Shown here: positions 33,801 through 36,800 of the stretch, piece after piece
How the letters are laid out: each line of letters starts with the position of its first letter
Numbering within the stretch: the stretch's first letter is position 1
Origin: Podarcis vaucheri
Taxonomy: Eukaryota
Direction: 5' to 3' (one strand)
Assembly: GCA_965113315.1 (NCBI GenBank)
Contig: OZ220372.1
DNA: 64,000 nucleotides
Made by a program: the position numbers

Positions 33801-36800
33801 TAGGCTACAATGTTATACTGAATGGCACTTCAAAGAGATCAGAAATGCATTGGCTGGGTCCCTGGAGAACCTGAGGACCAAGCAAAAGAAGTTCCCCCTT
33901 TGGTCCACCTGAGTCCAACTCCACCCATCAGATATCTCTCTTAATTAGGAGGGTGTCATAGCTCTAATTTACTTGTTCATTCTAATGATTATGTTTATGT
34001 AAGTCAATATATCATCTTATTTTACAATAGATATTTACCGTATGCCAATCAGTAGATTTATTGATTGAGATCTATGGGTATAGGACGATATACGTATTTA
34101 ACAAAAATTAAAATAAAATAGATACACAGAGAGAGACATGCACACAGAAACGCACTCATGCATATGTATGGACACATACACCATCCATCCCTTTCTCCTA
34201 GCCACATTCTGGATTGGTTGAGAAAGGATGTGGAGAAGCCAGTTTGTACCACACTAAGCAGACACCTGGGTGTTTCTTTAATTCAGATGGAGAAACACTT
34301 GTTTTATAGAATGACTAGATAAAATGGAGGGCCCTTTAATACAAGGATGGGGAAGCAGTGTTGAAGAATAGTGAGGTAGGACATGGCTCCTAATATCACA
34401 TTTGCCAATTGCATGGAAAGAGAAATAAAGTTTCCGTCCTCTCCTAATGCTTTTGGTGCTGAATCTCCACCCCTCTGTCTGCCTACTTAAACAGACTAAA
34501 ATACTTTTCACAATGTACAGTCCTTCCTGGACTCTAACATTTCAGAACTCAGGAGGGGTATCTTATTTACGCAGGCTCATTGGTGTGATAAAAAAGCTCC
34601 CTGCATGTGTGAGGAAAGCACCTAAATGATGATTCCCTTTACAGGCTGACACCTGTTCAGGGCTACAAGGATTCCTGATTTTCCACAGCTTCGGAGGAGG
34701 CACAGGTTCTGGCTTTACCTCCCTGCTGATGGAGCGCCTGTCTGTGGACTATGGCAAGAAGTCCAAGCTGGAGTTTGCCATCTACCCAGCCCCCCAGGTT
34801 TCCACTGCGGTGGTGGAGCCCTACAATTCTATCCTGACCACCCACACCACCTTGGAGCATTCCGACTGTGCCTTCATGGTGGACAATGAGGCCATCTACG
34901 ACATCTGCCGACGCAATCTGGACATTGAGCGCCCCACGTACACCAACCTGAACCGCCTCATCAGCCAGATTGTCTCCTCCATCACCGCTTCCCTGCGTTT
35001 CGACGGCGCCCTCAACGTGGACTTGACTGAGTTCCAGACCAACCTGGTGCCTTACCCTCGCATCCACTTCCCCTTGGTGACCTATGCGCCCATCATCTCC
35101 TCCGAGAGGGCTTACCACGAGCAGCTCTCCGTGGCCGAAATCACCAGCTCCTGCTTTGAACCCAACAACCAGATGGTGAAATGCGACCCCCGCCATGGGA
35201 AGTACATGGCCTGCTGCATGCTCTACCGAGGTGATGTGGTGCCCAAAGACGTCAACGTAGCCATTGCTGCCATCAAGACCAAGAGGGCAATCCAGTTTGT
35301 GGACTGGTGCCCAACTGGCTTCAAGGTGAGGAGAGATTCATATTGGCATGAACTCTGGGTCCCAATGCAATCATTAAGGTTTATCAAGAGAGGAATCTTT
35401 GGAAAAGATTCAGAAAAGGGCTTTTTCTGAACATCTGAAGCTTTTTACTTTAGAAAAAAAGCAGATAAGGGGAGACATGTAGTGTGGAGAAAGGGGATGC
35501 CATAGGAATTGCTGGTGAACATACCTGTGGTTTGGTGATTCCAAAAAAAGTCACACTCCATCCCATTCCCTATTGTTATTTCCCGTATAAAATAGAACTG
35601 CCTTGCAAACTATTTCACCATAGGTAAAGGTAAAGGGACCCCTGACCCCTGTTCGGTCCAGTCGCGTATGACTCTGGGGTTGTGACACTCATCTCACTTT
35701 ACTGGCCGAGGGAGCCGACATACAGCTTCTGCATCACGTGGCCAGCATGACTAAGCCGCTTCTGGCAAACCAGAGCAGTGCATGGAAATACCATTTACAT
35801 TCCCGCCGGAGCGGTACCTATTTATCTACTTGCACTGTGTGCTTTCGAACTGCTAGGTTGGCAGGAGCAGGGACTGAGCAACGGGAGCTCACCCCATCGT
35901 GGGGATTTGAACCGCTGACCTTCTGATCTGCAAGCCCTAGGCTCTGTGGTTTAACCCACAGTGCCACCTGTTCACTATAGGGTTGCCAACAAATAGAGGG
36001 ACATCACTCAGTTCCCATAGAGAATTATGATGGAAGGTATCAGTCTTTACCAGAACTACAGGCAGTATGTCACCTCATTCTTATTCTACCTCTATGGTTC
36101 CAATTTAGAGGTGGTTGCTTGAACTGATACCATTTATGTGTGTGTCTATATGCTTGCTTTCTCCCCTTTCCTTCTAATCCTACCAGGTTGGCATTAATTA
36201 CCAGCCGCCAACTGTAACCCCTGGAGGAGATCTGGCCCAAGTCCAGCGCGCTGTCTGCATGCTCAGCAACACCACTGCCATTGCTGAAGCCTGGGCAAGG
36301 CTAAACCACAAGTTCGACCTGATGTTTGCCAAGAGAGCGTTTGTGCACTGGTACGTTGGTGAAGGCATGGAAGAAGGGGAGTTTGTAGAAGCTCGAGAGG
36401 ACCTGTCCGCGCTGGAGAAGGACTATGAGGAAGTGGCAACTGACTCGTTTGAGTCGGTACTCGACAGCGAGGAAATCTAACAGTTTGCTCCTCTCTGTGC
36501 ACCAGATTGTCTCTTGTCTGTTTCTTCCCTTCCTTTGGGCCTTTGTAGACTTTGAGGGAGAAATTTCCTTCAGAGGTTCCGTGTGGAGGCTCATGAAAAG
36601 TTCCCAATGGGTCGGACTTTATTCAGTAACGCATTACAGGACAGAGTTAAAAGAGTTTGCGAGAGCTTTCTTTCAGAAAACACTATACAGTGGTACCTCG
36701 GGTTACATACGCTTCAGGTTACACATGCTTCAGGTTACAGACCCCGCTAACACAGAAATAGTACCTCAGGTTAAGAACTTTGCTTCAGGATGAGAACAGA

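What the first reader, a model, noticed from the sequence alone, without database searches (positions are those of the whole stretch)
34645..35325. Exon-4-restricted gene conversion between two old tubulin paralogs
Seen, by hand count: exon 4 of A and B (56016-56696) differs at about 12 of 681 nt, with an identical run of about 266 nt (34990-35255). Exon 3 differs at about 27 of 149 nt, mostly at synonymous sites. Exons 2 and 5 are also clearly diverged, and similarity collapses a few bases into the flanking introns. Protein constraint cannot explain near-zero synonymous divergence in one exon only. Inference: recurrent interlocus conversion homogenises the GTPase/intermediate core while the exons carrying the K40 loop and the C-terminal tail stay distinct. 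The result is a shared-core, variable-code mosaic pair.
Basis: partly seen in the sequence, partly recalled or inferred. Interest (0 to 1): 0.72.

Follow-up and report, generated by a model that had tools for sequence, protein, structure and literature searches.

The report
Exon-limited gene conversion between lizard tubulins
Two neighbouring alpha-tubulin genes of a lacertid lizard are old, well-diverged duplicates, but their largest exon has been copied from one gene to the other fairly recently, which is an ordinary though clean case of gene conversion.

Summary
Exon 4 of gene A (34645-35325) and of gene B (56016-56696) differ at 12 of 681 nt, with a 266-nt identical run. Exon-4 dS is 0.059, while exons 2, 3 and 5 are saturated (pS 0.57-0.79). 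Introns 2-4 cannot be aligned.

Both genes are intact 5-exon alpha-tubulins lying head-to-tail just downstream of PEX26, which is the TUBA8 locus. The same A/B pair exists in Zootoca, and exons 2, 3 and 5 group by paralog across lacertids.

The best explanation is non-allelic gene conversion confined to exon 4. This is the only stretch long and similar enough to support it. GC3 is raised there (0.78 against 0.44-0.64).

"Recurrent" conversion is inferred, not shown: substructure within the exon is not significant (P=0.14). The "shared-core, variable-code" design idea is untested and is not needed to explain the pattern.

The decisive cross-species DNA trees and long-read checks could not be run with these tools.

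Verdict: a real feature and a new member of a known kind. Interest is modest.

The parts
29342..29344 (+). Gene A, candidate exon 1 (ATG only; tentative)
   Evidence: CACCATG|GTAAGG lies 3.2 kb upstream of exon 2 and is the only ATG|GT site there with both a Kozak-like context and a consensus donor. There is no transcript evidence, and its alignment to the B candidate is weak.
32542..32761 (+). Gene A exon 2 (220 nt; residues RECIS...TVV; K40 loop)
   Evidence: AG/GT borders. Pfam Tubulin profile positions 1-56. Differs from B at 51 of 219 nt, dS 2.3.
33619..33767 (+). Gene A exon 3 (149 nt)
   Evidence: AG/GT borders. Pfam Tubulin profile positions 63-101. Differs from B at 27 of 147 nt, dS 1.07.
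34645..35325 (+). Gene A exon 4 (681 nt), the homogenised exon
   Evidence: 12 of 681 differences from B, dS 0.059, dN 0.0058, GC3 0.78. Pfam Tubulin positions 104-189 plus Tubulin_C positions 1-90.
34626..35336 (+). High-identity block in A (exon 4 plus 19 nt of intron 3 and 11 nt of intron 4)
   Evidence: blastn gives 97.6% identity over 711 nt to 55997-56707. The acceptor flank is 16 of 20 identical, against 7-12 for the other cognate exon flanks and 7-13 for non-cognate pairs.
34990..35255 (+). 266-nt identical run (partner 56361-56626)
   Evidence: P=0.03 given 12 differences in 681 nt.
36187..36480 (+). Gene A exon 5 coding part including TAA (tail ...ESVLDSEEI)
   Evidence: Differs from B at 67 of 291 nt, pS 0.79.
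48686..48688 (+). Gene B, candidate exon 1 (ATG only; tentative)
   Evidence: ATTATG|GTAAGC lies 3.0 kb upstream of exon 2. Not verified.
51703..51925 (+). Gene B exon 2 (223 nt; K40 loop one codon longer than in A)
54715..54863 (+). Gene B exon 3 (149 nt)
56016..56696 (+). Gene B exon 4 (681 nt), the homogenised exon
   Evidence: It lies 21,371 nt from the A copy in the same orientation.
58625..58918 (+). Gene B exon 5 coding part including TAA (tail ...EEENDGEEY)
23287..24939 (+). PEX26 exons upstream (context and synteny anchor)
   Evidence: Pfam Pex26: E=1e-33 for profile positions 122-229 and E=2e-14 for positions 222-271.

Best explanation
The window carries two intact alpha-tubulin genes, same-strand and head-to-tail, immediately downstream of PEX26. 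This is a tandem duplication at the TUBA8 locus of a lacertid lizard. The duplication is old. Exon 4, together with about 20 nt of the upstream intron, has been overwritten by non-allelic (interlocus) gene conversion between the two copies, which lie 21.4 kb apart. The last homogenisation dates to roughly 5% of the paralogs' age.

Conversion is confined to exon 4 because this exon is the only long stretch (681 nt) that protein constraint plus earlier conversions have kept similar enough to form heteroduplex. Exons 2, 3 and 5 are short, are flanked by unalignable introns, and now share identical runs of no more than 23 nt. They have therefore escaped conversion and keep diverging, a self-reinforcing split.

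Shown: the gene models, the per-exon divergence contrast, the unalignable introns, the GC3 excess, the grouping of exons 2, 3 and 5 by paralog across lacertids, and paralog-specific residues in the first three codons of exon 4. Inferred: conversion as the process, its repetition over time, and the homology-threshold reason for the exon limit.
For: (1) Exon-4 dS is 0.059 and four-fold sites differ at 5 of 109. In exons 2, 3 and 5, pS is 0.72, 0.57 and 0.79 and four-fold sites differ at 44 of 83. Fisher P=1e-34 and 8e-15.
(2) Introns 2, 3 and 4 show no alignable similarity (local-alignment z of -0.2, 0.7 and -1.3 against shuffles). A young whole-gene duplication is therefore excluded.
(3) The high-identity block overruns the acceptor site: 16 of 20 nt are identical, against 7-13 in controls.
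(4) GC3 is 176 of 227 in exon 4 against 134 of 219 elsewhere in A (P=2e-4), and 177 of 227 against 126 of 220 in B (P=3e-6). This is as expected from GC-biased conversion.
(5) Of the 12 differences, 8 are transitions and 6 lie at CpG sites. This is the ordinary pattern of young mutational decay.
(6) The same A+B pair exists in Zootoca. Amino-acid differences per exon are: exon 2, winA-PodA 1 of 73, winB-ZooB 4 of 74, A-B 14 of 74; exon 3, 0 of 49, 2 of 49 and 7 of 49; exon 5, 0 of 97, 1 of 97 and 12 of 97.
(7) The two exon-4 residues that vary outside the first three codons do not follow paralog identity. At KR[A/T]IQF the states are window A=A, window B=T, Zootoca A=A, Zootoca B=A and Podarcis A=T. 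At codon 5 the window's A copy has the B-type and crocodilian residue.
(8) No Rfam family hits anywhere in the window, and the antisense ORFs across exon 4 have no Pfam hit.
(9) The copies are close together and in direct orientation, and the tract size (about 0.7 kb or less) fits reported conversion tracts and the roughly 200-bp minimal efficient processing segment (MEPS) concept (PMC3924818, passages read).
Against: There is no DNA from any other species, so the defining phylogenetic discordance (exon 4 grouping by species) is untested. At the protein level exon 4 is nearly invariant even out to crocodilians (3-5 of 227 differences), so the protein trees for exon 4 are an uninformative polytomy.

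Both block boundaries sit suspiciously close to the exon borders. The donor-side flank (10 of 20 identical) is no better than the exon-2 donor flank (10 of 20). The evidence that the tract is genomic DNA rather than coding-only therefore rests on one 20-nt flank.

Substructure within exon 4 is not significant (max-chi-square P=0.14). The reads behind the assembly were not available.
Confidence: 0.8

Rival explanations
1. A single conversion event some 10-30 million years ago, rather than recurrent homogenisation, produced the whole pattern.
For: One tract of about 0.7 kb explains all the data. A nested younger tract is not significant (max-chi-square P=0.14; run-length P=0.03).
Against: If exon 4 had diverged freely since an old duplication, it would be about 83% identical, with only short identical runs like those of the other exons (16-23 nt). 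That is a poor conversion substrate by the MEPS concept. The two homoplastic exon-4 residues among lacertids hint at exchange in more than one lineage.
Confidence: 0.25
2. Assembly or polishing artefact: reads from one copy overwrote the other copy's exon 4.
For: Not excluded directly, because no reads were available. Near-identical paralogous segments are prone to polishing cross-talk.
Against: Cross-mapping needs pre-existing high similarity, so it could lower a divergence of a few per cent but could not turn about 17% into 1.8%. Twelve copy-specific differences survive, and 6 of them are at CpG sites. The first three codons of exon 4 carry the same paralog-specific residues in the independent Zootoca annotation. 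A misplaced segment would carry intron sequence with it, and it does not.
Confidence: 0.05
3. Selection on synonymous sites or on an embedded nucleic-acid element keeps exon 4 constant at the DNA level in both genes, without any exchange.
For: Exon 4 is the most protein-constrained exon (3-5 of 227 amino-acid differences to crocodilians). GC3 is high there.
Against: It would require near-complete constraint at 104 of 109 four-fold sites in one exon only. No Rfam family hits the window, and the antisense ORFs have no Pfam family. Similarity also covers 16 of 20 intronic nt upstream.
Confidence: 0.04
4. RNA- or cDNA-templated repair copied exon 4 between the genes, which would explain exon-precise borders.
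For: Both block ends lie within about 10-20 nt of the splice sites.
Against: The excess identity in the last 20 nt of intron 3 (16 of 20) is not expected from a spliced template. The outermost exon-4 codons are the least similar part (3 differences in the first 15 nt), so the tract ends inside the exon, not at the junction. Neighbouring introns are retained.
Confidence: 0.04

Closest known systems
Non-allelic (interlocus) gene conversion or partial concerted evolution between tandem paralogs, for example the exon-level events between the tandem Nav1.1/1.2/1.3 genes and duplicated Nav1.4 exons of salamanders (PMC8476164, passages read); general properties reviewed in PMC3924818 (passages read)
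   Same: Closely linked paralogs. A segment of a few hundred nt has far higher identity than the rest of the gene, and synonymous sites are homogenised along with non-synonymous ones. The tract length is in the reported range.
   Different: Here the converted block fills one entire large exon of an otherwise saturated pair, and no adaptive substitution is being spread. The phylogenetic and GENECONV tests used in those studies could not be run here.
Concerted evolution of tubulin gene arrays in protists: Leishmania beta-tubulin (PMC1533823, search listing and abstract start only) and Naegleria alpha-tubulin (PMC2115128, listing only)
   Same: Tubulin paralogs kept alike by exchange between copies.
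   Different: Those are whole-gene arrays of intronless or near-identical copies. This is a two-gene vertebrate pair in which only one of five exons is homogenised.
Sauropsid-specific clusters of alpha-tubulin duplicates (Findeisen et al. 2014, PMC4202323, passages read) and the PEX26-TUBA8-USP18 neighbourhood of mouse and primates (PMC7549372, passage read)
   Same: A tandem alpha-tubulin duplication in a sauropsid, next to PEX26. NCBI names the lacertid relatives 'tubulin alpha-8 chain(-like)'.
   Different: The term 'gene conversion' occurs 0 times in the main text of PMC4202323. Its supplementary tables and figure that list the sauropsid duplicates could not be opened, so I cannot say whether this pair is one of theirs.

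Membership tests
alpha-tubulin gene (TUBA8-locus type) | Tubulin/FtsZ GTPase domain plus Tubulin C-terminal domain | tested here: met
   Tested exon by exon. PF00091 matches in exons 2, 3 and 4, and PF03953 in exons 4 and 5, for both genes. Exon 3 of A scores 30.9 bits, just under the 33-bit cut-off that applies to a whole protein.
alpha-tubulin gene (TUBA8-locus type) | GGGTGSG nucleotide-binding signature and an intact reading frame with canonical splice sites | tested here: met
   The signature is present in both exon-4 translations. All eight coding exons are open with AG/GT borders, and both genes end in TAA. That this motif is the tubulin signature is recalled, not taken from a call.
alpha-tubulin gene (TUBA8-locus type) | N-terminal Met-Arg-Glu-Cys, with Met on a separate first exon | tested here: inconclusive
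   Exon 2 of both genes starts with RECIS. ATG|GT candidates lie at 29342 and 48686 but are unverified.
alpha-tubulin gene (TUBA8-locus type) | Position next to PEX26 | tested here: met
   Pex26 domain exons lie at 23287-24939 on the same strand. PEX26-TUBA8 adjacency in mouse and primates is from a PMC7549372 passage.
alpha-tubulin gene (TUBA8-locus type) | Acidic C-terminal tail ending in an aromatic residue | tested here: inconclusive
   Met for gene B (...EEENDGEEY). Not met for gene A, whose tail (...ESVLDSEEI) is less acidic and ends in Ile. The Podarcis A-type protein has the same tail. This is a usual feature rather than a strictly defining one.
interlocus gene conversion / partial concerted evolution | A bounded segment far more similar than the rest of the paralog pair, at synonymous sites too | tested here: met
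   dS is 0.059 in exon 4 and saturated elsewhere. Fisher P=8e-15 at four-fold sites.
interlocus gene conversion / partial concerted evolution | Flanking sequence shows that the duplication is much older than the similar segment | tested here: met
   The introns cannot be aligned. Exons 2, 3 and 5 group by paralog across lacertids. The four-fold-site distance ratio K4(exon 4)/K4(other exons) is 0.05.
interlocus gene conversion / partial concerted evolution | Phylogenetic discordance: the converted segment groups by species and the flanks by paralog | not testable with these tools
   No nucleotide data from other species are available. The protein tree of exon 4 is an unresolved polytomy. The only hint is two homoplastic residues.
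interlocus gene conversion / partial concerted evolution | The tract ignores coding boundaries (co-converted intron) | tested here: inconclusive
   The upstream flank is 16 of 20 identical, against 7-13 in controls. The downstream flank (10 of 20) is no better than a control.
interlocus gene conversion / partial concerted evolution | Read-level confirmation that both copies exist as assembled | not testable with these tools
   No reads are available.

The most novel reading that the evidence does not exclude
Exon 4 of this TUBA8-locus pair may have been held in continuous concerted evolution for the whole life of a duplication that predates the split between lizards and crocodilians. That would be a rare, very long-lasting partial concerted evolution in a vertebrate. 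Selection would favour an identical core while the K40-loop exon and the tail exon specialise: one copy has lost the terminal aromatic residue, and some copies have lost K40. Hints that the duplication is that old are 4 shared derived residues for A+crocodilian, against 1 for B+crocodilian and 0 for A+B, and an exon-5 tree placing A with the crocodilians at 87/87 support.
Probability: 0.15. Interest if true: 0.55.

Novelty: new member of a known kind. Interest (0 to 1): 0.3.

Why it matters
This is a clean natural example of how conversion can split one gene pair into a homogenised exon and freely diverging exons. It also carries practical warnings. Whole-gene trees or whole-gene dS for these tubulins will misdate the duplication. 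Annotation pipelines also stumble on the pair: the Zootoca reference models fuse the A and B genes.

For tubulin biology, it flags a lizard isotype pair that differs almost only in the K40 loop, helix-3 region and C-terminal tail. That makes the pair a convenient natural contrast for testing what those regions do. It does not open a new kind of mechanism.

Tried and rejected
(1) All three allowed protein-database searches were swamped by multi-copy fusion tubulin models. They were exon 4 of A in 'longer' mode (5951 proteins with E<=0.001 among 6856 candidates, 120 listed), exon 2 of B in 'longer' mode (3890 among 3904) and the Zootoca reference P0012, region 287-410 (4934 among 4977). Only 5 of the 195 stored hits belong to this clade by the SSERAYHEQ motif. 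No B-type orthologue was found beyond Zootoca.

(3) The test for nested tracts inside exon 4 was not significant (max-chi-square P=0.14). The post-hoc contrasts (first 15 nt, P=0.0017; 0 of 266 against 9 of 400, P=0.013) are suggestive only.

(4) A young duplication with later divergence of the other exons is rejected, because the introns cannot be aligned.

(5) An embedded structured RNA or an antisense gene is unsupported: there are 0 Rfam hits in the window and no Pfam hit for the antisense ORFs.

(6) The exon-1 candidates align only weakly with each other, so they remain tentative.

(7) Dating the duplication against crocodilians with per-exon protein trees left exons 2 and 3 unresolved. 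Only exon 5 gives A+crocodilian, at 87/87 support.

(8) Not run: GENECONV and per-exon DNA trees across species, because no such DNA is reachable. Supplements of PMC4202323 could not be opened.

Everything was done exon by exon, and the one codon split between exons 2 and 3 was left out of the counts.
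Full report
Origin of the window. I do not take this contig for human. Exon 4 translates to a protein 100% identical to Zootoca vivipara 'tubulin alpha-8 chain' models and 99% identical to a Podarcis muralis protein. The window also carries a full-length LINE and a lizard-type repeat load. It is not Zootoca itself, because exon 2 of gene B differs at 4 of 74 residues. It is not exactly the Podarcis cluster representative either, differing at 1 of 73 residues in exon 2 of gene A. 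Another lacertid is therefore likely. The window contains no N.

The observation. There are 12 differences in 681 nt between 34645-35325 and 56016-56696, and a 266-nt identical run at 34990-35255. A blastn self-comparison finds one block of 97.6% identity over 711 nt (34626-35336 against 55997-56707). It finds only weak matches for the other exons, at 77-81% identity, and none for the introns apart from interspersed repeats.

Gene models. Both genes lie on the + strand, with four coding exons each that have AG/GT borders. Gene A has exons at 32542-32761, 33619-33767, 34645-35325 and 36187-36480. Gene B has exons at 51703-51925, 54715-54863, 56016-56696 and 58625-58918. Both end in TAA. Pfam finds the Tubulin GTPase and Tubulin_C domains exon by exon. 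A tblastn of the gene-A exon peptides against the window finds exactly two copies of each exon. An expected first exon carrying only ATG was not verified; the candidates are at 29342 and 48686. Two ORFs with the Pex26 domain lie upstream on the same strand, at 23287-24939. PEX26 and TUBA8 are neighbours in mouse and primates (PMC7549372, passage read). The pair is therefore a tandem duplication at the TUBA8 locus. Findeisen et al. 2014 mention sauropsid-specific clusters of alpha-tubulin duplicates (PMC4202323, passages read). Their supplementary lists could not be opened.

Divergence per exon.
- Exon 2: 51 of 219 nt differ, dS 2.3, dN 0.106.
- Exon 3: 27 of 147 nt differ, dS 1.07, dN 0.065.
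- Exon 4: 12 of 681 nt differ, dS 0.059, dN 0.0058, and four-fold sites differ at 5 of 109.
- Exon 5: 67 of 291 nt differ, pS 0.79 (saturated), dN 0.076.

The contrast is overwhelming, with Fisher P=1e-34 for all sites and 8e-15 for four-fold sites. At the pooled pS of the other exons, 114 synonymous differences would be expected in exon 4, and 9 are seen. Introns 2, 3 and 4 show no alignable similarity (z of -0.2, 0.7 and -1.3 against shuffles). The genes are therefore old duplicates, not a young pair whose other exons diverged quickly. The four-fold-site distance of exon 4 is about 5% of that of the other exons (0.047 against 0.92). With assumed neutral rates of 0.8-2.5e-9 per site per year, that puts the last homogenisation at very roughly 9-30 million years ago. 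Those rates are my assumption and come from no call.

Block edges and the nature of the differences. Upstream, the last 20 nt of intron 3 are 16 of 20 identical, and the next 20 are 4 of 20. The other cognate acceptor flanks score 7-12 and non-cognate pairs 7-13. Downstream, 10 of 20 are identical, no better than the exon-2 donor flank. Inside exon 4, three of the 12 differences fall in the first 15 nt. The first three codons carry paralog-specific residues that are the same in Zootoca (A: Ala-Asp-Thr; B: Thr-Asp-Ala). The homogenised stretch therefore starts a few codons inside the exon. Eight differences are transitions and six lie at CpG sites, as expected for young mutational decay. GC3 is 0.78 in exon 4 against 0.44-0.64 in the other exons (P=2e-4 for A and 3e-6 for B), which fits GC-biased conversion. 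A permutation-corrected max-chi-square scan finds no significant substructure within exon 4 (P=0.14). The 266-nt run alone has P=0.03.

Relatives. The Zootoca reference models P0011 and P0012 turn out to be read-through fusions of an A-type gene (part of exon 2 through exon 4) with a B-type gene (exons 2-5). The same tandem pair therefore exists in that species. P0116 of Podarcis muralis is A-type. Exons 2, 3 and 5 group by paralog across these lizards, with 0-4 differences within a type and 7-14 between types. The B clade in exon 2 has 93/91 support. Exon 4 is almost invariant as protein: 3 of 227 residues differ between A and B, 3-5 of 227 to the Alligator and Crocodylus proteins, and 15-17 of 227 to a TUBA1-type protein. 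Protein trees of exon 4 therefore say nothing either way. Two exon-4 residues do vary among lacertids, and neither follows paralog identity. This is what exchange between copies would produce, but it is only two sites. Whether the duplication predates the lizard-crocodilian split is only hinted at. Strict shared derived residues number 4 for A+crocodilian, 1 for B+crocodilian and 0 for A+B. The exon-5 tree joins A with the crocodilians at 87/87 support, while exons 2 and 3 are unresolved.

Mechanism. The best reading is non-allelic gene conversion between two directly repeated genes 21,371 nt apart. The limit to exon 4 needs no selection for a mosaic. Conversion needs a run of good homology, with a minimal efficient processing segment of about 200 bp in yeast and tracts of 50 to several hundred bp (PMC3924818, passages read). 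Exon 4 is the only long exon and the most protein-constrained one. Exons 2, 3 and 5 now share identical runs of only 17, 16 and 23 nt and sit between unalignable introns.

The same argument makes repeated conversion more likely than one late event. Had exon 4 drifted freely it would be about 83% identical and a poor substrate. This is inference, not demonstration.

Rivals. A polishing artefact cannot create the effect from about 17% divergence, and it does not fit the surviving CpG-type differences. An embedded RNA element or antisense gene finds no support. Synonymous constraint would have to be nearly total in one exon only. A cDNA template does not fit the intronic flank identity.

Conversion between old paralogs is supported. 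'Recurrent' is plausible but unproven. 'GTPase/intermediate core' is only partly right, because exons 2-3 encode Pfam Tubulin profile positions 1-101 and are diverged. The 'shared-core, variable-code' design is an untested gloss. It is true that the differences between A and B concentrate in the K40-loop exon, the exon-3 segment [16 protein letters not shown] and the tail.

Literature. My searches found gene conversion or concerted evolution of tubulins in Leishmania and Naegleria (listings) and a passing mention for insects (PMC2880298, passage read). They found none for vertebrate or squamate alpha-tubulins. The term is absent from the main text of PMC4202323. Exon-level non-allelic conversion between tandem vertebrate paralogs is well documented elsewhere, for example in newt sodium-channel genes (PMC8476164, passages read).

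Verdict. The feature is real, accurately observed and well explained by a known process, so it is a new member of a known kind. The decisive tests are per-exon DNA trees across species, long-read validation and population data. None of them could be run here.

Noticed in passing
window 23287-23763 and 24415-24939 (+): Two ORFs carry the Pex26 domain (E=1e-33 and 2e-14). PEX26 therefore lies directly upstream of the tubulin pair, as it does next to TUBA8 in mammals.
   Followed up: partly
window 37706-41772 (-): A full-length LINE lies between the two tubulin genes, with both reading frames open. ORF2 is 1007 aa with endonuclease and reverse-transcriptase domains. ORF1 is 373 aa with a GDSL-esterase-like domain.
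   Followed up: partly
window 41858-43519: A tandem array of a 153-nt unit, 10.8 copies at 99% matches, lies directly beside the 5' end of the LINE.
   Followed up: no
window 43682-45000 and 45084-46402: A direct tandem duplication with a 1402-nt offset, 99.8% identical over 1319 nt with 3 mismatches. It is either very young or an assembly duplication.
   Followed up: no
window 29801-30035, 36686-36933, 43682-43920, 45085-45325, 46487-46734, 57546-57781, 58134-58369, 59202-59436: A SINE-like repeat of about 240 nt occurs in at least 8 copies (85-93% identical, both orientations). Two copies lie in intron 4 of gene B and one just downstream of gene A's stop codon. No Rfam family matched.
   Followed up: no
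window 36430-36480 (tail of gene A) and 32640-32680 / 51800-51845 (K40 loops): Gene A ends ...ESVLDSEEI, which is less acidic and has no terminal Tyr or Phe. The Podarcis A-type protein has the same tail. The lysine at the K40 position is present in both window genes. It is Glu in Zootoca B and absent in the crocodilian proteins.
   Followed up: partly
proteins P0011/P0012 (Zootoca) and P0120 (Crocodylus): The reference gene models are chimeric. The Zootoca models join A-type exons 2-4 to B-type exons 2-5. The Crocodylus model repeats the exon 2-3 block with identical residues, which suggests a tandem pair there too.
   Followed up: partly
window 63251-63750 and 20501-21500: These are CpG-island-like stretches (CpG o/e 1.0, and 0.62-0.80), possibly promoters of the next gene downstream and of PEX26. 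The ORF at 63266-63703 has no Pfam hit.
   Followed up: no
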